Shown here piece after piece: positions 6,495-50,034 of a DNA stretch of 64,000 bases (the first letter of the stretch is position 1; each line of letters starts with the position of its first letter). The stretch is from Gammaproteobacteria bacterium (lineage in GTDB: Bacteria; Pseudomonadota; Gammaproteobacteria; Ga0077554; Ga007554). The position numbers and the translations under genes were made by a program. The stretch is taken from the NCBI GenBank assembly GCA_033717875.1, contig JADDKJ010000007.1:31255-95254 (forward strand), read 5' to 3'. The notes under the pieces are model-generated. The model saw nothing but the letters and a program-made list of their open reading frames with translations. It was not told where the DNA came from and did no database searches.

Positions 6495-8696
6495 ATGGCT
6501 GACGAGCGAACACCGCCATTGCCTGAGCACCCCCGCAGCCTTGCTGCACCGCGCGAGCTTATTTTTGTTACAAAACGAGAAGCAGATTTGCAGGTAACGC
6601 AGGAAGGCGTTGCGTCCACCGCGGGCGCAGACATCACCCCCCTAACGGAATTGTTGTCCTCCGAGGGTGCCACGCTGCGGCCGTTATTTGGCGTCAGTGG
6701 AGCCAGGCTCAGGGATGAAGCCGCATCTTTGGCGTCCGCTGCGGGTGCGGAAGCGCCGGATCTATCCGTTTACTTTAGAGTGGAGGCACCCGATGAGCGT
6801 TTGGACCTGTTGGCAGAGCGCTTGCGCGAACTGGAGGTTGTCGCTGCCGCGTATGTAAAGCCGGGAGCCGAACTGCCGGAAATCAACGACATGCTCCCTG
6901 TGGCGGAAGAGCCGCCGTTGCACACGCCTGACTTCAGCGCCAGCCAGGGTTATCTGGGTGCTGCCCCGGAAGGTATTGACGCGCGTTACGCATGGACGCT
7001 CCCTGGAGGCGGAGGAGCGGGTGTGGGGATTGTTGATATCGAAGGCGCCTGGCGATTCAGCCATGAGGACCTGGTCCAGAACCAGGGAGGGGTGACGGGA
7101 GGCACCCAAATCAACGATCCCGCCTGGCGCAATCACGGTACCGCCGTGATTGGAGAATTCGGCGGCGACCGTACCGCATTTGGCATCACGGGAATCTGCC
7201 CGGATGCCGGCGTGCGAGCCATCTCGATTGGCGGCCTGGGTTCGGCCGCAGCCATCCGGCAGGCGGCGAACGCCCTGCGCCCGGGTGACATCATCCTTAT
7301 CGAACTCCACCGTTCCGGGCCGCGGGCGACCGGCAGTGGCCAGCAGGGTTTCATTCCGATCGAATGGTGGCCGGATGACTTTGACGCCATTCGCTTTGCC
7401 ACCAGCCGCGGCGTCATCGTGGTGGAAGCGGCGGGAAACGGCGCGGAGAACCTCGACGACCCGATCTATAACACCCCGCAGGCGGGCTTTCCCGCCACAT
7501 GGACGAATCCGTTCAATCGGGCCAATCGCGATTCCGGTGCAATTGTGGTCGGGGCCGGTGCGCCGCCTCCCGGCACTCATGGCAGGGACCACGGCCCCGA
7601 TCGCTCGCGTCTCGGTTTTTCGAACTGGGGAGCGCTGGTGGACGCCCAAGGCTGGGGAAGGGAAGTAACCACCTGCGGATACGGTGATCTTCAGGGCGGG
7701 GTCAACGAGGACGAATGGTACACCGACCAATTCAGTGGAACCTCCAGCGCGTCGCCGATTGTCGTGGGCGCCCTGGGTTGTCTCCAGGGGGCCCTGCGCG
7801 CCCAGGGAAGATCCCCGCTGACCCCCGCCGAGGCAAGAGATCTGCTGCGCGTAACCGGCTCCCCGCAACAGGATGCGCCCGGGCGGCCCCGTACCCAGCG
7901 GATCGGCAACAGGCCCGATTTGCGCCAGATGCTCGCGCACGTCACCAAAGGAAAGGACTCCAAAGACATCAAAGACAAGGACCGCAAAGAGTTCAAGGAC
8001 CTGCCCAAAGAAAAAGAGAAGGACGTCAAAGAGGTCAAGGAGGCGAAGGAGGCAAAAGAATTCAAAGAAAAGGATCGCAAGGAGAAGGATCGCAAGGAGT
8101 TCAAGGATCTGCCAAAAGAGAAGGAGAAGGACATCCGGGAGGGCTTTCGGTTTCCGCCTGGTGAACCGGTCCAGCCCATCGCCGCCGCCATTCTTGAGCA
8201 GCGCCTCGCCCGTCTCGAAGCCGTGCTCGCCCGGTTGACCGATCTGCTGTTGCGCTCGCGCAAGTGCGTCGACTTCAAGGCATTTCCCCTTGGGAGCGGA
8301 CCGAATCCGTGGCGGGTCCAAGGCGCGACATTCGCAGCGCGTGACCATGCGAACAATCTACTGCCGCAGACCAGGGTTACCTCCTGGGGTGGCTTCACCG
8401 GGTTGGACTGCGGATTTGCCCTTGAAATTCGCTTGCCGGTCTCCTGCCCGGTCGTAGAGGTCGCGCTTGTGCATTTCGCCCGGCCAGCGAAGGTCACGGC
8501 GTTCAACACGAATGGTGCGATCGCGGCGACGGCGGCAATGAGCGGCCCGCAACGGCAGAGCGAAACGCTCCGACTCAGCGGCGGTGCGATCAACCGCGTT
8601 GTGGTGGAGGCCCCGCAGAGCGAGACGCTGTTGCTCGCGATGTGCTACGGTTGGAAGGAGCCCAAGATCGATAAGCTCGAAGGAAAAGAGCTTTAG
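6495..8696 (+). CDS. S8 (subtilisin-like) serine peptidase without signal peptide, with K/E/D-rich spacer and C-terminal beta-rich domain
   Basis: Catalytic motifs in D-H-N-S order: VGIVDIEGAW, NHGTAVIGEF, EAAGNG, SGTSSASP. N-terminal propeptide-like region with no hydrophobic leader. Spacer KGKDSKDIKDKDRKEFKDLPKEKEKD...KEKEKDIREG. Start at 6495 (GAGGGA 7 nt upstream); 6453 and 6480 are also possible. Confidence 0.8.
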   Translation: MADERTPPLPEHPRSLAAPRELIFVTKREADLQVTQEGVASTAGADITPLTELLSSEGATLRPLFGVSGARLRDEAASLASAAGAEAPDLSVYFRVEAPDERLDLLAERLRELEVVAAAYVKPGAELPEINDMLPVAEEPPLHTPDFSASQGYLGAAPEGIDARYAWTLPGGGGAGVGIVDIEGAWRFSHEDLVQNQGGVTGGTQINDPAWRNHGTAVIGEFGGDRTAFGITGICPDAGVRAISIGGLGSAAAIRQAANALRPGDIILIELHRSGPRATGSGQQGFIPIEWWPDDFDAIRFATSRGVIVVEAAGNGAENLDDPIYNTPQAGFPATWTNPFNRANRDSGAIVVGAGAPPPGTHGRDHGPDRSRLGFSNWGALVDAQGWGREVTTCGYGDLQGGVNEDEWYTDQFSGTSSASPIVVGALGCLQGALRAQGRSPLTPAEARDLLRVTGSPQQDAPGRPRTQRIGNRPDLRQMLAHVTKGKDSKDIKDKDRKEFKDLPKEKEKDVKEVKEAKEAKEFKEKDRKEKDRKEFKDLPKEKEKDIREGFRFPPGEPVQPIAAAILEQRLARLEAVLARLTDLLLRSRKCVDFKAFPLGSGPNPWRVQGATFAARDHANNLLPQTRVTSWGGFTGLDCGFALEIRLPVSCPVVEVALVHFARPAKVTAFNTNGAIAATAAMSGPQRQSETLRLSGGAINRVVVEAPQSETLLLAMCYGWKEPKIDKLEGKEL

Positions 8697-8930
8697 GAGA
8701 AGCCTGAGAAGCTCGAAACCAAGGAAATCAAGGATAAAGATAAGAAATTGGTCAGTTGGCTCATTTTAGCGGCCATGAATTGCGACCTGATTTGGGTTCA
8801 AGAGCTCTCAGGGGTGAATCGGATATGGGCAGCACTGATCCTGCAATTGAGTCAGCAACTTTATAAACAGGCTATAGCCACTAAGCAACTCAAGGAAGAC
8901 AAGGACATCGAGAAGGTGAGAGAGGGGTAG
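8697..8930 (+). pseudogene. decayed C-terminal extension of the S8 gene, homologous to the tail of the next gene
   Basis: After the TAG at 8694-8696 the same frame stays open (EKPEKLETKEIKDKDKK...). EIGQLAHFSGHELRPDLGSRALRGESDMGSTDPA reads in a shifted frame, and LSQQLYKQAIATKQLKEDKDIEKVREG* reads back in the original frame. Both segments align to 10249-10431 (GQLSHFISPELRPDL...LRQRLQKQAADAKQAKDGKDIEKPREG*). Confidence 0.5.
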
Positions 8931-9006
8931 CCGTTTGGTTAATTATCAATGCAGGCAGGTTGTGATTTCATAACCGCCAACTCGCCTTTTTTTATGGAGG
9001 AAAGAT

Positions 9007-10431
9007 ATGCCAAGAACTAATTTTGTGCCAGCCAGACACGGTTTTCACTTTCGAAACGATTTCGTGAACAATGTAGCCACAATTCCATTTTTTGGGAATG
9101 TTACGACCCGCGGACGATGCGGCGGAATGGCGTATGCCGCATTGGATTACTACCACGCGGGCATCCCTACCCCTACTCATAATACCTCTGATTTTCCAGG
9201 GACAGGTGTTCCTGCCGATGGCACTCGACTAGCTGATTACATCTACTGGAGGCTATTGAATAGCTTCACAGTGCCCACAACCATGAATTTTATTACATGG
9301 ACGATGCATGCTGACCATGCCACCTGGTTTTTCAAAGGGGTTACCCGCTGGACCAAAGAGGATGAGTTTAGCAAATTGCGTCGGTATATCGACAGCGGTA
9401 CTCCTGTAGTGCTGGGGCTCGTTTGCTCAAGGGATTTAACGCAGATTGGGGACAATCATCAAGTCGTAGCCTATGGTTACGATTTTGATCCAGACTCGGA
9501 GACTATCACCATATACATTTACGATAATAATTACCCTGATCAGGAAGTCGTACTGTCGTCAGATCGGTCCAATCCGCATTTTAACGAGTCTACTGGGGCC
9601 ATATGGCGTGGGTTCTTCGTTCAGGATTACGGTGCGCAGCGACCTACTTACCTAGATCTTGCGATTTCTAGAGGCATATGGGTGAGTTCGAGCCATCCGA
9701 CATTGGGCGGTCACTTTGACTGTCAGTACACCGTCAGGAATTACGGTGATTACCCGGCCCATCTCCAGTTTTTGTATCTTTATTTGAGGGGGCCGTCTGG
9801 TGAAAACCTGGATTCTTTTCTGGGGTCGGATGCGAATGCCACCCCGCTTCAGGCCAACGAAGAAAGGATGATTTTTAAAGCCAGCGAGAGGTTCTCCACT
9901 TTGGCGGGGAACCATACAATAGGAGCCGCGTATTTTTCCGAACGGGGAGAATGGATTGGCATTCCTGCCGGCGAGCCAGGTGCTGCAAGAGAAGTTGTCA
10001 TTTCCGTTGAAAAACCAAAGGAGAAGGAGAAAGAAAAAGAGAAAGAGCAAAAGGATAAAGAAAAGGATCGCAAGGACACAAAGGAAAAGGAGGTTGCCAA
10101 AAACGAATCCAAGGAGGCCAAGGAGCTGACTAAGGAAAAAGACAGAGAGAACTATTACACCCCAAAAGAGTTCGCCGAGGACTTTTCTGGGGGGACCGCT
10201 GGCCACCCGTCTTTCGAAGAACGCCTGACCCGTGTTGAGGCGGCAGTAGGTCAACTCAGTCATTTCATCAGCCCAGAGTTGCGCCCCGACTTGAGTATCG
10301 GCTCCCTCAGGCGCGAGCCTGATCTGGACAGTCCCGATTCTGCCTCGCTGAGGCAGCGGCTTCAAAAACAGGCGGCCGATGCCAAGCAGGCCAAGGACGG
10401 TAAGGATATTGAAAAGCCAAGAGAAGGATAG
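9007..10431 (+). CDS. papain-like Cys/His peptidase-fold protein with K/E-rich spacer and conserved acidic/basic tail
   Basis: Candidate triad GRCGGMAYAALDYY (Cys), NHQVVAYGYD (His), IYIYDNNYP (Asp/Asn). A beta-sandwich-like middle domain. Spacer EKPKEKEKEKEKEQKDKEKDRKDTKEKE.... Tail ERLTRVEAAVGQLSHFISPELRPDL...KDGKDIEKPREG. GGAGG 7 nt upstream of the ATG. No signal peptide. Confidence 0.6.
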   Translation: MPRTNFVPARHGFHFRNDFVNNVATIPFFGNVTTRGRCGGMAYAALDYYHAGIPTPTHNTSDFPGTGVPADGTRLADYIYWRLLNSFTVPTTMNFITWTMHADHATWFFKGVTRWTKEDEFSKLRRYIDSGTPVVLGLVCSRDLTQIGDNHQVVAYGYDFDPDSETITIYIYDNNYPDQEVVLSSDRSNPHFNESTGAIWRGFFVQDYGAQRPTYLDLAISRGIWVSSSHPTLGGHFDCQYTVRNYGDYPAHLQFLYLYLRGPSGENLDSFLGSDANATPLQANEERMIFKASERFSTLAGNHTIGAAYFSERGEWIGIPAGEPGAAREVVISVEKPKEKEKEKEKEQKDKEKDRKDTKEKEVAKNESKEAKELTKEKDRENYYTPKEFAEDFSGGTAGHPSFEERLTRVEAAVGQLSHFISPELRPDLSIGSLRREPDLDSPDSASLRQRLQKQAADAKQAKDGKDIEKPREG

Positions 10432-10448
10432 CTGGCGGACAGGCAGAT

Positions 10449-10488
10449 GGCGGGGCCGGTTTTCGCATTCCCGGCCCCCGCCATTTTT
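10449..10488 (+). terminator. intrinsic terminator-like hairpin
   Basis: Stem ggcggggccgg ... ccggcccccgcc followed by ttttt, directly after the stop at 10431. Confidence 0.6.
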
Positions 10489-10507
10489 CGGGGGAGGATG
10501 TTGAGCA

Positions 10508-11254
10508 ATGTGGCTGGTGCTTTGTCCGTCAAATGATGAGGCCGCGCTTTGGGCCTACGAGGGTCTCAAGGCCCGGCAGATCGCACCGCTCGAATTGGTG
10601 AGCGCCGAGGAGCTGGCGTGCAGCCTGCGCTGGGAGCATCGGGTGTCGGCGGATGGCGCCAGTGTCGCCATCACCCTTGCGGACCGGCGCACAATCAACA
10701 GTGGCGCTGTCCGCGGAATAGTGAATCGCCTTTCCTATATTCCCCAGGAGCACCTTGCCATGGCCAGTCCGGCCGATCGCGAATACGCAGCACAGGAGCT
10801 GATGGCGTTTTACATGAGTTGGCTGTACGCCATGCCTCAGCCGGTGCTGAACCGGCCAACGGCGCAGGGGCTGTCCGGCGCATGGCGCCACATCTCCGAA
10901 TGGGTTTGGCTGGCCGGGAAGGCGGGGTTGCCGACACTGCCTTACCGGCAAAGCGGCTTTGATGAGATCGATGAAGGGCATCTCAGGGGAGGGTTCGTCT
11001 CAGCAGAGACGCCAGTGAATACGGTCATCGTCATTGATGGGCACGTTGTCGGGGAATCGCCCCCCCCCGACATTGCTGCAAGCTGCAAACGTCTCGCGGG
11101 TCTCGCGGGGGCCGGGTTGTTGGGCATTCAACTTGTTGCCGGGCCGGAATCTTCCTGGACCTTCGCCGGGGCGACACCGTTGCCTGATCTCAGGCTGGGG
11201 GGCGAGGCACTGCTCGATGTGATGGCGGCGGCGCTCCAGGGTGGAGGAAGGTAA
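10508..11254 (+). CDS. degenerate ATP-grasp paralog (pseudo-enzyme candidate)
   Basis: Colinear with the next gene. MWLVLCP... matches MILLCGIP..., NRPTAQGLSG matches NRTGPMGSNS, VIVIDGHVVG matches VRVHTVGTEVF, and CKRLAGLAGAGLLGIQLV matches CVRLARALELPFAGIDLK. It lacks about 60 central residues, and FAGATPLP replaces the Mg-ATP motif FEVNPSP. Confidence 0.6.
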   Translation: MWLVLCPSNDEAALWAYEGLKARQIAPLELVSAEELACSLRWEHRVSADGASVAITLADRRTINSGAVRGIVNRLSYIPQEHLAMASPADREYAAQELMAFYMSWLYAMPQPVLNRPTAQGLSGAWRHISEWVWLAGKAGLPTLPYRQSGFDEIDEGHLRGGFVSAETPVNTVIVIDGHVVGESPPPDIAASCKRLAGLAGAGLLGIQLVAGPESSWTFAGATPLPDLRLGGEALLDVMAAALQGGGR

Positions 11255-12184
11255 ATGATTCTGCTATGCGGCATTCCCACCGAAACCCCGATCGCCATGG
11301 TCCGGGAGGAGCTCGATGGACTCGGCGTGCCGTATGCCGTGTTCAATCAGCGGCATTTCAGCGCCACAGAGCTGGAATTCGCAATCTCCGGCAATCGTGT
11401 CACCGGCCGGATAACCATCGACACCCAGGACTACCGTCTCGAGGATATTTGCGGCGTTTATACCCGGTTAATGGATGATCAGGTCTTGCCGGAGCTCAAG
11501 GATGAACCCGCCGGTTCACCCCGGCGGCGGTACTGCCGAGCCCTCCACGATGCCTTGATGCGCTGGTGCGAGATCATGCCGGGCCGTGTTGTCAACCGCA
11601 CCGGGCCGATGGGGTCCAATTCGTCCAAGCCCTATCAGGCGCAACTCATCCGCGAACAGGGTTTTGCCATTCCGGAGACGCTTGTCACTAACGATCCGGA
11701 TCTGGTGCTTCAATTCCGCGCCAAGCACAAGAGGATCATCTACAAATCGATCAGCGGCGTGCGCTCCATTGTGCAGACCCTCGAAGACGAGGACCGGGAA
11801 CGGCTGGCGCAGATTCGCTGGTGCCCCACGCAGTTTCAGGAGTTTGTGGAAGGCACCAACGTTAGGGTGCACACGGTCGGGACTGAAGTGTTTGCGACTG
11901 CCATCACCACCGAGGCTGCCGACTACCGGTACGCACATCGGGCAGGTAAAGAGGTGGAACTGAAGGCGTTCGATCTGCCCGGCGAGCTTGCCAATAAGTG
12001 CGTGCGTCTCGCCCGGGCGCTGGAACTGCCCTTTGCCGGCATTGATCTCAAGATCACCCCCGATAACCGGGTCTACTGTTTTGAGGTCAATCCGAGTCCG
12101 GCATTCAGTTATTACGAGAGTAACACAGGCCAGCCAATTGCTCGGGCCGTGGCGCGATATCTGGCTGGGGAAACGCAATACTGA
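11255..12184 (+). CDS. MdnC/MvdD-like ATP-grasp ligase
   Basis: Pre-ATP-grasp N-domain, IYKSISGVRS, CPTQFQEFVEGTNVRVHTVG, IDLKITPDNRVYCFEVNPSPAFSYYE. From memory, the block order resembles microviridin ligase MdnC. The start abuts the previous stop (TAA then ATG), with GGAGGAAGG inside the upstream gene end. Confidence 0.8.
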   Translation: MILLCGIPTETPIAMVREELDGLGVPYAVFNQRHFSATELEFAISGNRVTGRITIDTQDYRLEDICGVYTRLMDDQVLPELKDEPAGSPRRRYCRALHDALMRWCEIMPGRVVNRTGPMGSNSSKPYQAQLIREQGFAIPETLVTNDPDLVLQFRAKHKRIIYKSISGVRSIVQTLEDEDRERLAQIRWCPTQFQEFVEGTNVRVHTVGTEVFATAITTEAADYRYAHRAGKEVELKAFDLPGELANKCVRLARALELPFAGIDLKITPDNRVYCFEVNPSPAFSYYESNTGQPIARAVARYLAGETQY

Positions 12185-14866: not shown

Positions 14867-15886
14867 TCACAGTGTCACGCCCATTTTGTCCGCAATTTTC
14901 ATTGCCAACTGGTTGAAATCTTTCTTGGCATCCTGAACAGCATTGGCATGACTACCTATGGCACCATCGGCGGGTGTCAGATTGAAAATCGGTTTATGAT
15001 GCTCCTGCGCCATGGGAATCAAGCTGCGATAGTGCTTGATTGTAGCCAGGCAATAGGGATCATCGATGATCTGTTTTGTAAGCACGTCCGGCTTCTCGCC
15101 CAGTACTGATTCGCGGTATATCGCAGGAATGCGAGTGATCCACTTTTCATAGGCTTTAACCGGCCTATTCAGGCGCACACTATATTGCTGGCAAAGATAA
15201 CCTATAGGCTGCATTTTCCCTTGCGGCAAATGGAAGGTGGGATGGGATGGCTTTTCGGCGCTTGCTTCCCAGTTATCCAGCCTTTTTTTCCATAGGTTTT
15301 GCCAGTTTTTCAAGGTGGGGCCAAGATTTTTCAGCCCTTGTAAGGAGAACAGGTCAGCCCCGAGAGGAATCACTACGTAATCAGTGGCGACCAGTACCGA
15401 TCGGTTGATTGCGCCCAGATTTGGGCCGATATCGACAAGTATGATATCAGCTTGAACTTTTTCCACGGCCATCCGCATTACCTGCCAGAAAGAGCTCAGT
15501 ATTCGCATTGGGCGGTAAAGATTGTTGTCGCCCATGCTGTTAGGCCATTCGTTGGAAAGCGCATCTTCAAAACCGGATAAATTGACATCTCCCGGGATCA
15601 GGTAAAGGTCTGTGGCAATGGTTTGCAGCGTAGGTTCGGTGATATCACCAATCGCGGTAAGTGGCTTGACGCACTGAAAGATCGTTGAGCCTTGTGACGA
15701 ACTGTTCCAGATCTCCTCAATCCGATCTTCATCCAGGAAGGCCGACGTCAAATTGGCTTGTGGATCAAGATCTACGGCGACAACCCGCTTGCCCAGACTG
15801 GCAAACATCCACGCAAGATGATAGATCAACGAAGTTTTGCCCACGCCGCCCTTGTTGTTAAAAAAAGTCAACACGGGCGCACTCAT
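14867..15886 (-). CDS. ParA/MinD-like P-loop ATPase
   Basis: Deviant Walker A FFNNKGGVGKTS, then VAVDLDPQANLT and ILVDIGPNLG. ATGA overlap with the upstream gene. A/T-rich relative to its flanks. Confidence 0.8.
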   Translation of the reverse strand: MSAPVLTFFNNKGGVGKTSLIYHLAWMFASLGKRVVAVDLDPQANLTSAFLDEDRIEEIWNSSSQGSTIFQCVKPLTAIGDITEPTLQTIATDLYLIPGDVNLSGFEDALSNEWPNSMGDNNLYRPMRILSSFWQVMRMAVEKVQADIILVDIGPNLGAINRSVLVATDYVVIPLGADLFSLQGLKNLGPTLKNWQNLWKKRLDNWEASAEKPSHPTFHLPQGKMQPIGYLCQQYSVRLNRPVKAYEKWITRIPAIYRESVLGEKPDVLTKQIIDDPYCLATIKHYRSLIPMAQEHHKPIFNLTPADGAIGSHANAVQDAKKDFNQLAMKIADKMGVTL

Positions 15887-17091
15887 GGTTTGCGCCTCAT
15901 CACACAAGCGACCGCGCTCTGATTTACTTCAAACGTCAGCTCAGGATTGCCGTTTTTTTCCAGTTCTTTTCTCGCGGTAGCAATTCCTCTTCCAAATGCC
16001 TGAATAAAACCAAACGTTTTTAACACGTCGCCAATATTCGGATTACGATAATCCGTGATGCCAGGGTTGCCGAAGTTATCAATCGTGACATTGCCATACG
16101 GTCCGCCTGGGCTGATGATTTCAATGCGGTCATTAAACCAATACACCCGCACCGGAGCATTGGTGCTCTCGTAAGTTCTGTGCAACACGGCGTTATATAG
16201 AATCTGCTGGATTGCAGCAGGGGGGTATGGCATCTCTTTCAAATGTGTTGGCGCCGAGATGATGTCGATAGCTGCCCGGTTATGGGCCATAAGTTTTTCT
16301 TCAGTACGACGAAGTACCTCTACAAGTGCTCCTCCTATTGGTTCTTCGTCGATTACCGGGTCAGATAGCTCCGTCCCGTCAATGCGCAAAAACTGAATAT
16401 ACGCGCCAGGAAGGAAATCCTGGGGGCTTTTTCCGATGGCGAGTAATCCAAGCACGGTTGGCGTAGTATCATCAGGTGACACAATCATCTTGCATGAAGC
16501 GAGGCGTTCCTCATAGGTTCTGCCATTAGTTTCCAGAATATCTGCTGCAAATGCGGCGGGTAAATATTCGTTCTCGAAGATCAGCCTTGAAAGATCCGAA
16601 ACCTTTGCTGTGGGAATGGGATAAATATCGAAAGGAAGATTTTTATATCTTCTTCTTTCACTGAGGATACGTTCTTCCTGTTCGTTGGCAATAGAGCGGC
16701 GTGGGCCAGTGCGAATCCAGATACGCCCCTCGTACTTTACCGGTGGCATATCCGAGGGCATAACCGTTACAACGGCCATCTCGGTGCCTTTCAAGGTTCT
16801 TTTTTCAACAGAGAGAACAGGCAATGGAAGGATGTTGCCGTCGCTTCTCATATCCGCCAGGCTGCGAAGCAGTTCATCCGTGATAGGTTCGTCAGAAGGA
16901 GATCCATCGTCTTTCGCGCCTATGAAAAGAATGCCCGGCTTGTTGTGGTTGGGTAAATCATTGGCGAACGCGCAAACAGCCTGCCGGGCTTTTTTGGAGG
17001 CATCTCCTCTGAAAGACCGCTTTCTCTCAGTAAGATCGGATTCAGTATCATCCAATAGAGCCGTCAGCTCCTGGTCCGCAAGTCTTTTCAT
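15883..17091 (-). CDS. AlbA_2 (Schlafen-like) plus HATPase_c_4 putative DNA-binding ATP-binding protein
   Basis: N-terminal ESDLTERKRSF...AVCAFANDL...GILFIGAKDDG. C-terminal AIQQILYNAVLHRTYES, DRIEIISPGGPYG, YRNPNIGDVLKTFGFIQAFGRGI. Confidence 0.75.
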   Translation of the reverse strand: MKRLADQELTALLDDTESDLTERKRSFRGDASKKARQAVCAFANDLPNHNKPGILFIGAKDDGSPSDEPITDELLRSLADMRSDGNILPLPVLSVEKRTLKGTEMAVVTVMPSDMPPVKYEGRIWIRTGPRRSIANEQEERILSERRRYKNLPFDIYPIPTAKVSDLSRLIFENEYLPAAFAADILETNGRTYEERLASCKMIVSPDDTTPTVLGLLAIGKSPQDFLPGAYIQFLRIDGTELSDPVIDEEPIGGALVEVLRRTEEKLMAHNRAAIDIISAPTHLKEMPYPPAAIQQILYNAVLHRTYESTNAPVRVYWFNDRIEIISPGGPYGNVTIDNFGNPGITDYRNPNIGDVLKTFGFIQAFGRGIATARKELEKNGNPELTFEVNQSAVACVMRRKP

Positions 17092-49958: not shown

Positions 49959-50034
49959 GCCCAGGTAGCTCAGTCGGTAGAGCAGGGGACTGAAAATCCC
50001 CGTGTCGGTGGTTCGATTCCGCCCCTGGGCACCA
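49959..50034 (+). tRNA. tRNA-Phe (GAA)
   Basis: 76-nt cloverleaf folded by hand. Acceptor gcccagg/cctgggc, anticodon loop ctGAAaa, T-loop ttcgatt, encoded CCA. Confidence 0.95.

What the first reader, a model, noticed from the sequence alone, without database searches (positions are those of the whole stretch)
6495..12184. Four-gene island: two cytoplasmic peptidases with a shared K/E/D-rich spacer and tail, plus a graspetide-type ATP-grasp ligase and a dead paralog
Seen in sequence: four co-directional genes. (1) An S8 subtilase with a full D/H/N/S motif set and no signal peptide. (2) A 474-aa protein with papain-like Cys/His/Asp motifs and no signal peptide. (3) A shortened ATP-grasp paralog lacking the Mg-ATP motif. 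(4) A full ATP-grasp enzyme whose block order matches my memory of microviridin ligase MdnC/MvdD. Both peptidases carry a Lys/Glu/Asp-rich spacer followed by an ERLxRxEA helix. Gene 2 ends in the tail GQLSHFISPELRPDL...KQAKDGKDIEKPREG, and a decayed copy of that tail lies behind gene 1. Established knowledge: MdnC/MvdD-family ligases form side-chain ester or amide macrocycles between Thr/Ser/Lys and Asp/Glu in graspetides, and many graspetides are protease inhibitors. Inference: the ligase pair may cross-link the Lys plus Asp/Glu-rich segments or tails of these full-size peptidases. That would amount to a protein-scale graspetide or a built-in cross-linked autoinhibitor. I see no convincing conventional short precursor gene next to the ligase. 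I do not know of a described system with this architecture, but I cannot search for one.
Basis: partly seen in the sequence, partly recalled or inferred. Interest (0 to 1): 0.85.

Follow-up and report, generated by a model that had tools for sequence, protein, structure and literature searches.

The report
Ligase pair with tail-tagged substrate proteins
A graspetide-type ATP-grasp ligase and its dead paralog sit, in hundreds of bacterial species, directly behind proteins that all end in the same Lys/Glu-rich spacer and about 45-residue tail, so these full-size proteins (some of them peptidases) are probably the long-missing substrates of this ligase branch.

Summary
All four genes, the catalytic motifs, the K/E/D-rich spacers, the ERLxRxEA helices, the tail of gene 2 and a decayed tail copy behind gene 1 are present. 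Gene 4 groups with the graspetide macrocyclases PsnB, MdnC and CdnC, not with RimK. Gene 3 is a degenerate ATP-grasp paralog that lacks the central domain and the Mg-binding Glu and Asn.

Comparative genomics shows what is conserved. In 80 loci from many phyla the gene-3 homolog lies directly upstream of the ligase. In all 77 loci with sequence upstream, the next gene ends in a spacer plus the tail ExRLxxLExxVxxLxHFIxxxLRPDL[S/T]xGALxxEPD. The N-terminal part is interchangeable: S8, trypsin-like, astacin, M64 or papain-like peptidases, TIG or lectin domains, or nothing. About two thirds of carriers have no recognised domain.

The likely substrate is therefore the spacer-plus-tail module, not the peptidases as such. 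This argues against a peptidase autoinhibitor.

The locus type matches "branch 8" of Makarova et al. 2022, which had an inactive truncated ATP-grasp, unrelated peptidases and no precursor found. The shared tail appears not to have been reported. The chemistry is not determined.

Verdict: a new variant of a known kind, interest about 0.7.

The parts
6495..8696 (+). Gene 1. A cytoplasmic S8 subtilase carrier with this layout: S8 domain (Pfam match at about 7098-7859), K/E/D-rich spacer 1 (7929-8156), EQRLARLEA helix (from 8196), an unknown 'X' domain (about 8250-8654), then the start of spacer 2, cut by a TAG stop.
   Evidence: Peptidase_S8 E 3.9e-11. Motifs D181, H214, N315 and S417 are present; spacer and helix coordinates come. 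The reading frame continues as K/E-rich sequence past the stop.
8697..8930 (+). Decayed copy of the spacer-plus-tail module that once ended gene 1. It reads EKPEKLETKEIKDKDKK / IGQLAHFSGHELRPDLGSRALRGESD / ...KQLKEDKDIEKVREG across two frames.
   Evidence: Three-frame translation. The DNA alignment with the gene 2 tail and both L001 tails shows a stop, a 4-nt gap and a 2-nt gap, and loss of the ERLxxLE helix. The tail profile hits it at E 1.7e-9.
9007..10017 (+). Gene 2 passenger part: a papain-like domain (9007-9651; C38 at 9118, H151 at 9457, D173 at 9523) followed by an Ig-like beta-sandwich (about 9652-10017).
   Evidence: Two AlphaFold models: full length pLDDT 81.9, N-domain 92.7. Foldseek finds papain-like peptidases for the N-domain, and transglutaminase 2 and CARDB or Ig-like sandwiches for the whole protein. 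The triad is invariant in alignment A8. GC3 is 0.49-0.55 against about 0.70 for genes 1, 3 and 4.
10018..10197 (+). Gene 2 K/E/D-rich spacer (EKPKEKEKEKEKEQKDKEKDRKDTKEKEVAKNESKEAKELTKEKDRE...).
   Evidence: Composition scan. Predicted as a helix followed by a low-confidence region. The same kind of spacer precedes the tail in 76 of 81 carriers.
10198..10431 (+). Gene 2 conserved C-terminal tail: amphipathic helix EERLTRVEAAVGQL, then SHFISPELRPDLSIGSLRREPD, then the Lys/Asp-rich end ...KQAKDGKDIEKPREG. This is the proposed recognition and substrate element of the ligase pair.
   Evidence: The tail profile hits 77 of 77 assessable loci immediately upstream of the gene-3 homolog. There are 159 representative proteins with E <= 1e-3, and among the 150 listed nearly all carry the tail at the extreme C-terminus. 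Column frequencies over 191 tails are.
10447..10490 (+). GC-rich hairpin (13 bp) followed by AUUUUU, between the carrier gene and gene 3. It may act as a leaky terminator that sets the ratio of substrate to enzyme.
   Evidence: Folding; the z-score against shuffles is not significant. The intergenic region between carrier and gene 3 has a median of 72 nt and is mostly strongly structured across 71 loci, but it is 15 nt or less in 14 of them.
10508..11254 (+). Gene 3. A degenerate, non-catalytic ATP-grasp paralog, probably an obligate partner of the ligase.
   Evidence: hhalign against the ligase profile gives E 6e-5, colinear, with the central domain missing and the Mg-binding E and N replaced by Ala. 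phmmer cross-hits to the ligase occur in several loci. It lies directly upstream of the ligase in 81 of 81 loci, commonly with an ATGA overlap, and is fused to the ligase in frame in L030.
11255..12184 (+). Gene 4. A graspetide-type ATP-grasp ligase with an intact catalytic set (K164, D264, E277, N279 invariant in the family).
   Evidence: NCBIfam and PDB profile searches. It is 65-75% identical to homologs in Nitrospirota, Acidobacteriota, Chloroflexota, Cyanobacteria, Gemmatimonadota and others.

Best explanation
This is a self-contained three-part module that has spread by horizontal transfer. It consists of one or more substrate ('carrier') proteins, a catalytically dead ATP-grasp paralog (gene 3) and a graspetide-type ATP-grasp ligase (gene 4).

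What defines a carrier is its C-terminal end, not its N-terminal domain. That end has two parts. The first is a Lys/Glu-rich spacer of strictly alternating charge. The second is a tail of about 45 residues: an amphipathic helix (ExRLxxLExxVxxL) followed by HFIxxxLRPDL[S/T]xGALxxEPD.

My proposed mechanism, all of it inferred:
- Genes 3 and 4 form a complex.
- The tail helix and HFI motif act like a graspetide leader and dock on the ligase.
- The ligase uses ATP to activate a side-chain carboxylate. The candidates are the near-invariant Asp of LRPDL, the Glu of GALxxE, or Glu/Asp in the spacer.
- It then joins that carboxylate to a nearby Ser, Thr or Lys side chain, forming an ester or isopeptide cross-link on a full-size protein.

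The peptidase, TIG and lectin domains are interchangeable passengers. Where the passenger is a peptidase, its most economical role is to cut the Lys-rich spacer and release the modified tail, that is, a maturation protease fused to its own precursor.

In this window gene 2 is the live substrate. Gene 1 has lost its tail through a stop codon and two frame breaks.
For: Shown:
- The ligase belongs to the graspetide clade (PsnB 7e-35, MdnC, CdnC and MdnB, against RimK at about 1e-8 to 1e-10).
- Gene 3 is a colinear paralog without the central domain and without the E-x-N metal ligands.
- Gene 3 lies directly upstream of the ligase in 81 of 81 loci, commonly with an ATGA overlap, and is fused to it in L030.
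- A tail-bearing gene lies directly upstream in 77 of 77 assessable loci. The other three contigs end before it.
- No other neighbour is conserved across phyla. No small ORF is conserved downstream.
- The tail is C-terminal in 95% of 191 cases. Its near-invariant residues are R, E, H, F, I, R, P, D, L, A, L and E.
- Passengers are shuffled even among the closest ligase relatives: S8, trypsin-like/Nal1, astacin, M64, papain-like, TIG, lectin or none.
- Most homologs of the gene 2 passenger lack the module and carry a different C-terminal domain. The gene 2 passenger also has foreign GC3. Together these show that the spacer-plus-tail is a portable module.
- None of 47 large carriers has a signal peptide, so they share a compartment with an ATP-dependent enzyme.

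Precedents from papers:
- A 22-kDa graspetide precursor with five Lys-Asp lactams, and partner-dependent synthetases (PMC13097080).
- A leader still works when moved C-terminal to the core (PMC13003496).
- A graspetide synthetase can cyclise and cross-link whole proteins (PMC12291112).
Against: - No chemistry is shown.
- No nucleophile position in the tail is invariant. Ser/Thr at position 35 occurs in 70% of tails and Lys/Ser/Thr at position 40 in 60%. In 24 of 179 tails both are absent, and the two positions do not compensate for each other. A fixed ring inside the tail is therefore not supported.
- The tail could be only a docking element.
- The ligase scores far below the curated cut-offs of every NCBIfam graspetide family (126.6 bits against 350), so it is a separate branch and its reaction could differ.
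- Most loci have no peptidase, so tail release cannot in general depend on a fused one.
- The reason for 100-300 residues of patterned K/E spacer is not explained.
- I could not model the complex of gene 3, gene 4 and the tail.
Confidence: 0.6

Rival explanations
1. The ligase pair cross-links the spacer or tail so that it becomes a built-in, graspetide-like inhibitor (a covalent pro-peptide) of the peptidase it is fused to.
For: Many graspetides inhibit serine proteases (PMC8939145). Carriers that have a recognisable enzyme domain are overwhelmingly peptidases. Those peptidases are cytoplasmic, where latency would be useful.
Against: About two thirds of carriers have no recognised domain at all, and others carry TIG or lectin domains. 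The same tail is attached to serine (S8, S1-like), cysteine and metallo (M12A, M64) peptidases. Most homologs of gene 2 do without the tail. AlphaFold gives no confident contact between the tail and the active site.
Confidence: 0.1
2. The hypothesis of Makarova et al. The neighbouring peptidases cut other cellular proteins to supply peptides that the ligase then modifies. On this view the tail is at most a scaffold-docking element that brings peptidase and ligase together.
For: Stated for branches 7 and 8 in PMC8939145. The tail has no invariant nucleophile, which fits a docking role.
Against: Most loci have no peptidase, yet all have a spacer-plus-tail protein. Carriers made only of K/E spacer and tail would have no role. 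What is conserved is the tail, not peptidase activity. Many members of the gene 2 family even lack the catalytic Cys and His.
Confidence: 0.1
3. The tail is a conjugation or sorting tag. The ligase activates the invariant Asp or Glu of the tail and joins it to an amine on another molecule. That could be a lysine of another carrier's spacer or of a target protein, or a lipid or cell-envelope amine. The result would be anchoring or polymerising of passengers that look extracellular (proteases, TIG arrays, a lectin-like bacteriocin domain).
For: Carboxylates are invariant while nucleophiles vary. The layout of passenger, charged stalk and C-terminal signal resembles sorting-signal proteins (from my own knowledge). 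Passenger families are typical of secreted or surface proteins, including a putidacin L1-type lectin at E 3.8e-26. ThfB can cross-link separate protein chains.
Against: There is no conserved transporter, membrane protein or acceptor gene in the neighbourhood. Carriers have no signal peptides. All characterised relatives of the ligase make intramolecular rings.
Confidence: 0.15
4. The similarity of spacer and tail is a chance effect of low-complexity sequence, and the genes are unrelated neighbours.
For: The spacers are low-complexity, and the word-indexed database search returned only 20 short proteins.
Against: Tail profile E-values reach 1e-24 at a fixed position in 77 of 77 loci from many phyla. 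Twelve non-low-complexity positions are at least 88% conserved. The helix motif occurs 165 times against about 2 in shuffled sequences.
Confidence: 0.01

Closest known systems
ATP-grasp 'branch 8' loci of Makarova et al. 2022 (Biol Direct 17:7, PMC8939145)
   Same: A graspetide-clade ligase, a truncated and catalytically inactive ATP-grasp paralog, neighbouring peptidases of several unrelated families, and no short precursor.
   Different: That paper reports no shared C-terminal tail or K/E spacer on the peptidases. It screened only neighbours of 150 aa or fewer and proposed that the peptidases cut other proteins. Here the tail-bearing proteins themselves, most of them without a peptidase, are the conserved partner. 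I could not verify sequence-level identity with branch 8, because the held supplement is truncated.
Structurally characterised graspetide synthetases: PsnB (7DRM), MdnC (5IG9), CdnC (7MGV), MdnB (5IG8)
   Same: Full-length colinear homology at E 7e-35 to 6e-25, with the same catalytic residues.
   Different: According to the papers read here, those enzymes act on short precursors with an N-terminal leader, and none characterised before rosaritide needed a partner protein. This ligase is always paired with a dead paralog, and its candidate substrates are 130-1900 aa proteins with the conserved element at the C-terminus.
Corallotide (CorA/CorB) and rosaritide (MirC partner), Carter et al. 2026 (PMC13097080)
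   Same: Corallotide has an unusually large (22 kDa) precursor with repeated Lys-x3-Asp lactams made by a TIGR04187-type ligase. That family is also the best NCBIfam match of gene 4. Rosaritide's synthetase needs a co-purifying partner protein.
   Different: The rosaritide partner is a PpiC-like protein, not an ATP-grasp paralog. The precursors there have no enzyme passengers, no K/E polyampholyte spacer and no LRPDL tail; 'LRPDL' is absent from the held supplements.
Engineered ThfB substrates (Link lab: PMC12291112, PMC13003496)
   Same: These show that a graspetide synthetase can use a leader placed C-terminal to the core, can cyclise whole proteins and can cross-link protein chains.
   Different: Those are laboratory constructs. 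The module here would be a natural, widespread counterpart.
Borosins (OphMA-type precursors fused to their own modifying enzyme); recalled from memory, not tested
   Same: A RiPP core sits at the C-terminus of a full-size enzyme.
   Different: In borosins the fused enzyme is the modifying methyltransferase. Here the fused domains are peptidases or binding domains, and the modifying enzyme is separate.

Membership tests
Graspetide synthetase clade of ATP-grasp ligases (gene 4) | Sequence groups with MvdD/MdnC/PsnB-type maturases rather than with RimK or GshB | tested here: met
   TIGR04187 scores 1.1e-36, MvdD 1.6e-27 and MvdC 3.1e-26, against rimK_fam at 7.6e-17 and glutathione synthase at 0.01. 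In the PDB search PsnB scores 7e-35 and RimK about 2e-8.
Graspetide synthetase clade of ATP-grasp ligases (gene 4) | Reaches the curated score of a named NCBIfam graspetide family | tested here: not met
   126.6 bits against a cut-off of 350 for TIGR04187, and 96.5 against 475 for MvdD. It is a separate branch.
Graspetide biosynthetic system | A ribosomal precursor next to the ligase, with a conserved recognition (leader) motif and a core holding Ser/Thr/Lys and Asp/Glu | tested here: inconclusive
   A conserved helix plus HFI motif and invariant Asp and Glu are present. Nucleophile positions vary. The element is at the C-terminus of large proteins, not in a short peptide.
Graspetide biosynthetic system | Side-chain ester or amide macrocycles are actually formed | not testable with these tools
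   This needs mass spectrometry after co-expression.
Makarova et al. 2022 'branch 8' loci | A truncated, inactive ATP-grasp paralog is encoded with the ligase | tested here: met
   hhalign E 6e-5 with the central domain missing and the metal ligands lost. Present in 81 of 81 loci.
Makarova et al. 2022 'branch 8' loci | Peptidases of several unrelated families lie in the locus, and there is no precursor of 150 aa or fewer | tested here: met
   S8, trypsin-like/Nal1, astacin, M64 and papain-like peptidases are found. No conserved small ORF is found.
Makarova et al. 2022 'branch 8' loci | The ligase sequence falls inside their branch 8 on the tree | not testable with these tools
   The rows for branch 8 and the sequence files are cut off in the held supplement. 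Motif searches found nothing.
Peptidase S8 (gene 1) | Pfam score above the gathering cut-off, and the Asp/His/Ser triad with the oxyanion Asn | tested here: met
   43.3 bits against 21.8. D181, H214, N315 and S417 are present.
Papain-like (clan CA) cysteine peptidase (gene 2 N-domain) | Cys, then His, then Asp/Asn in that order on a papain fold | tested here: inconclusive
   C38, H151 and D173 are invariant in the closest subfamily. The model has pLDDT 92.7. Top Foldseek hits are nearly all papain-like but weak (E >= 0.015, TM 0.25-0.38). Pfam C39_2 scores 16.9 bits, below the 24-bit cut-off. Many more distant homologs have Ser or Gly for the Cys and Arg for the His.
Known anti-phage defence systems | Any of the four proteins matches a PADLOC model | tested here: not met
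   No hits at E <= 0.01.

The most novel reading that the evidence does not exclude
The gene 3/gene 4 pair is a natural ATP-dependent protein-protein isopeptide ligase. It would activate the invariant Asp or Glu of the tail and join it to lysines of the K/E-rich spacers, either in cis (giving protein-scale lariats) or between carriers (giving covalent polymers that carry proteases, TIG arrays or lectins). That would make it a bacterial protein-conjugation system built on a RiPP enzyme, comparable in function to pupylation or transglutaminase cross-linking.
Probability: 0.15. Interest if true: 0.9.

Novelty: new variant of a known kind. Interest (0 to 1): 0.7.

Why it matters
A whole branch of graspetide-type ligases has had no known substrate. 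At least 316 of about 185,000 species representatives carry a relative of this ligase, and the 80 closest loci span a dozen phyla. The shared C-terminal tail gives a concrete candidate that can be tested directly.

If the candidate is right, it shows three things:
- RiPP-type macrocyclases act in nature on full-size proteins, including active enzymes.
- A pseudo-enzyme paralog can be an obligate partner of such a ligase.
- A portable 'spacer plus tail' cassette can put arbitrary proteins under the control of one ligase.

That cassette would also be a ready-made natural tag for enzymatic protein cyclisation or cross-linking.

Tried and rejected
- **Word-indexed search with a 40-tail alignment.** It returned only 20 short proteins. 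The sequences and the two loci I inspected look like internal-start or frameshift fragments of K/E-rich carriers, not real short precursors.
- **Confirming that the ligase lies in Makarova's branch 8.** The supplement is truncated, and searches for sequence motifs found nothing. Iyer et al. 2009 is not held.
- **Modelling genes 3 and 4 together.** Homologs taken from fetched loci are not accepted for structure prediction. No complex with the tail could be modelled.
- **Gene 3 profile against PDB sequences.** Nothing significant. Its ATP-grasp ancestry rests on hhalign and phmmer cross-hits.
- **PADLOC defence models.** No hits.
- **Looking up the window's own ligase in the contig index.** Not on record, so the organism was not identified.
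- **Direct or inverted repeats marking island borders.** None convincing.
- **Conserved small ORFs downstream of the ligase.** Only Arg/Ala/Pro-rich off-frame artefacts and a lineage-specific PAS protein.
- **A fixed ring inside the tail.** Nucleophile positions wobble and do not compensate.
- **Encapsulin cargo-loading peptide.** The window's LSIGSLRR resembles one from memory. I rejected this because the family consensus differs (LSxGALxxE) and no shell gene is conserved nearby.
- **Type I secretion signal.** No ABC or membrane-fusion genes are nearby.

Full report
**What is in the window.**

Four co-directional genes lie between hemA and a TPR gene on one side and a citrate-synthase-like gene on the other.

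- Gene 1 (6495..8696) is an S8 subtilase: Pfam E 3.9e-11, above the cut-off.
  - It has D181, H214, N315 and S417 and no signal peptide.
  - After the catalytic domain come a K/E/D-rich spacer (7929-8156), an EQRLARLEA helix, an unknown 'X' domain of about 135 aa, and the start of a second spacer.
  - A TAG stop cuts that second spacer.
- The next 230 nt still encode, in two other frames, IGQLAHFSGHELRPDLGSRALRGESD and KQLKEDKDIEKVREG.
  - A DNA alignment with the tail of gene 2 and with both tails of the Nitrospira locus L001 shows the stop, a 4-nt gap and a 2-nt gap. The helix part is lost.
  - So gene 1 once ended in the same tail and has lost it.
- Gene 2 (9007..10431) has four parts: a papain-like domain, an Ig-like sandwich, a spacer and an intact tail.
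  - C38, H151 and D173 are invariant in the closest subfamily.
  - The N-domain model is confident, at pLDDT 92.7. Its Foldseek hits are weak, but nearly all the best ones are papain-like peptidases.
- Gene 4 (11255..12184) matches graspetide maturases best: TIGR04187 at 1.1e-36 and PsnB at 7e-35, then MdnC, CdnC and MdnB.
- RimK scores much worse.
  - Gene 4 is far below every curated family cut-off, so it is a branch of its own.
- Gene 3 (10508..11254) has no library hit.
  - Its 27-member profile aligns colinearly with the ligase profile at E 6e-5.
  - The central domain is deleted, and the Mg-binding Glu and Asn are replaced by Ala.

**What is conserved elsewhere.**

The ligase has thousands of homologs. 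The closest are 65-75% identical and come from very different phyla.

A scan of one genome per species found 316 loci, and I examined the best 80.

- A gene 3 homolog lies directly upstream of the ligase in all of them.
  - The two genes commonly share an ATGA stop/start overlap.
  - In L030 they are fused in frame through a Pro/Ser linker.
- A profile built from the tail hits the C-terminus of the gene directly upstream of gene 3 in 77 loci, with E 1e-7 to 1e-24. In the other three loci the contig ends before that gene.
- Nothing else is conserved across phyla. No small ORF is conserved downstream.
- A phmmer search of 1.84 billion representative proteins with the window's 77-residue tail found 159 proteins at E <= 1e-3.
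  - The 150 listed are 55 to 872 aa long, and in nearly all of them the tail is at the very C-terminus.
- The short ones I examined are gene-call or frameshift fragments of K/E-rich proteins.

**The carrier module.**

Over 191 tails the conserved pattern is E-x-R(93%)-L-x-x-L-E(94%)-x-x-V-x-x-L-x-H(88%)-F(97%)-I(96%)-x3-L-R(97%)-P(97%)-D(90%)-L(95%)-[S/T](70%)-x-G-A(90%)-L(96%)-x-x-E(95%)-P-D(74%). In 95% of cases the tail ends within 60 residues of the C-terminus.

A K/E-rich spacer precedes the tail in 76 of 81 carriers, with a median length of 116 aa. Its composition is 29% Lys and 24% Glu. KK and EE dipeptides are 10-20 times rarer than in shuffled sequence, and there is a period of three. 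It is therefore a patterned polyampholyte, not mere low complexity.

The ExRLxxLE helix can recur inside carriers after an earlier spacer. The motif occurs 165 times against about 2 in shuffles, and 16 carriers have two or more copies. Gene 1 has such an internal copy.

N-terminal passengers are interchangeable:
- S8 peptidases
- trypsin-like/Nal1 peptidases
- astacin
- M64
- papain-like peptidases
- TIG arrays
- a putidacin-type lectin
- nothing recognisable, in about two thirds of carriers

None of 47 large carriers has a signal-peptide-like N-terminus.

Most homologs of the gene 2 passenger have a different C-terminal beta domain instead of the module. The gene 2 passenger has GC3 of 0.49-0.55, against about 0.70 for genes 1, 3 and 4. 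The module is therefore portable, and the passenger in this window looks recently acquired.

**Interpretation.**

The only feature that always accompanies the ligase pair is the spacer-plus-tail. I conclude that the carriers are the substrates, or at least the specific clients, of the pair. I also conclude that the tail plays the part of a graspetide leader plus core fused to the end of a full-size protein.

This answers why no precursor was found for what is very probably Makarova's branch 8. That branch was described with a truncated inactive ATP-grasp and peptidases of unrelated families, and only neighbours of 150 aa or fewer were screened.

Precedents make the proposal chemically reasonable:
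- a 22-kDa precursor with five Lys-Asp lactams, and partner-dependent synthetases;
- a leader that works from the C-terminal side;
- enzymatic cyclisation and cross-linking of whole proteins by ThfB.

What remains inferred:
- that genes 3 and 4 form a complex (supported by gene fusion and translational coupling);
- where the ligase acts;
- what bond it makes.

Carboxylates in the tail are invariant, but nucleophile positions wobble and do not compensate. The reaction may therefore involve the spacer lysines or another molecule.

**On the peptidases.**

The carriers span five peptidase families with serine, cysteine and metal catalysis. Most carriers have no peptidase. Most gene 2 homologs have no tail.

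A simpler reading is non-orthologous peptidases fused to a precursor in order to cut the Lys-rich spacer. That reading cannot be general either. I give the docking-only and conjugation-tag readings some weight.

**Verdict.**

The locus type is already in the literature without a substrate. The shared tail and spacer, and hence the protein-scale substrate, appear to be new.

Noticed in passing
window 8250-8654 (gene 1 residues about 586-720): An unknown 'X' domain of about 135 aa sits between two K/E spacers. It recurs in carriers with different peptidases: L009 (S8), and L004 and L073 (both trypsin-like), at E 1e-30 to 1e-34. It has no Pfam match.
   Followed up: partly
window 10447-10490: A 13-bp GC-rich hairpin followed by AUUUUU lies between the carrier gene and gene 3. 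The matching intergenic region is short (median 72 nt) and strongly structured in most of 71 loci, but nearly absent in 14. It may act as a leaky terminator.
   Followed up: partly
window 9007-9978 versus 6495-7928 and 10508-12184: The gene 2 passenger has GC3 of 0.49-0.55, while genes 1, 3 and 4 have about 0.68-0.71 and the flanking genes 0.68-0.82. The passenger looks recently imported and joined to a resident spacer and tail.
   Followed up: partly
alignment A5 (homologs of gene 2): In many full-length homologs of gene 2 the catalytic Cys is Ser or Gly and the His is Arg. They also carry a different C-terminal beta-rich domain instead of the spacer and tail. These are likely pseudo-peptidases.
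   Followed up: no
window 8064-8083 and 10057-10076; 7970-8034 and 8078-8142: An exact 20-nt match links the spacers of gene 1 and gene 2. Inside the gene 1 spacer there is a 65-nt internal duplication at 82% identity. Both suggest repeat expansion or gene conversion in the spacers.
   Followed up: no
K/E spacers of 81 carriers (e.g. window 7929-8156 and 9979-10182): Charge alternates strictly. KK and EE/DD dipeptides occur at 0.05 and 0.09 of the shuffled expectation, and like charges recur every three residues (1.7-fold enrichment). I have no structural or enzymatic explanation.
   Followed up: partly
L030 5996-7723: A natural in-frame fusion of the gene 3 homolog and the ligase through a 30-aa Pro/Ser-rich linker, in a Longimicrobium MAG.
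   Followed up: yes
L001 7675-9174: In the Nitrospira locus with the same four-gene order, the second carrier has an N-terminal lectin domain. It matches the putidacin L1 family of lectin-like bacteriocins (E 3.8e-26) and lies ahead of the papain-like domain.
   Followed up: no
window 10297-10320 (LSIGSLRR in the gene 2 tail): This stretch resembles encapsulin cargo-loading peptides such as LTVGSLRR, as I recall them. The family consensus (LSxGALxxE) and the absence of shell genes argue that the resemblance is coincidental.
   Followed up: partly
L083 7112-8219: A RES/Xre toxin-antitoxin pair lies directly downstream of the cyanobacterial (Hydrococcus) copy of the module. In that locus both a 1227-aa TIG protein and a 356-aa protein carry the tail.
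   Followed up: partly
window 14867-17091 (minus strand): A ParA-like ATPase ORF (deviant Walker A, NKGGVGKT, judged by eye) and a 402-aa ORF sit in a lower-GC stretch (0.54-0.57). This may be another inserted element. It was not analysed.
   Followed up: no
window 49959-50031: A single tRNA gene, the only Rfam match in the window.
   Followed up: no
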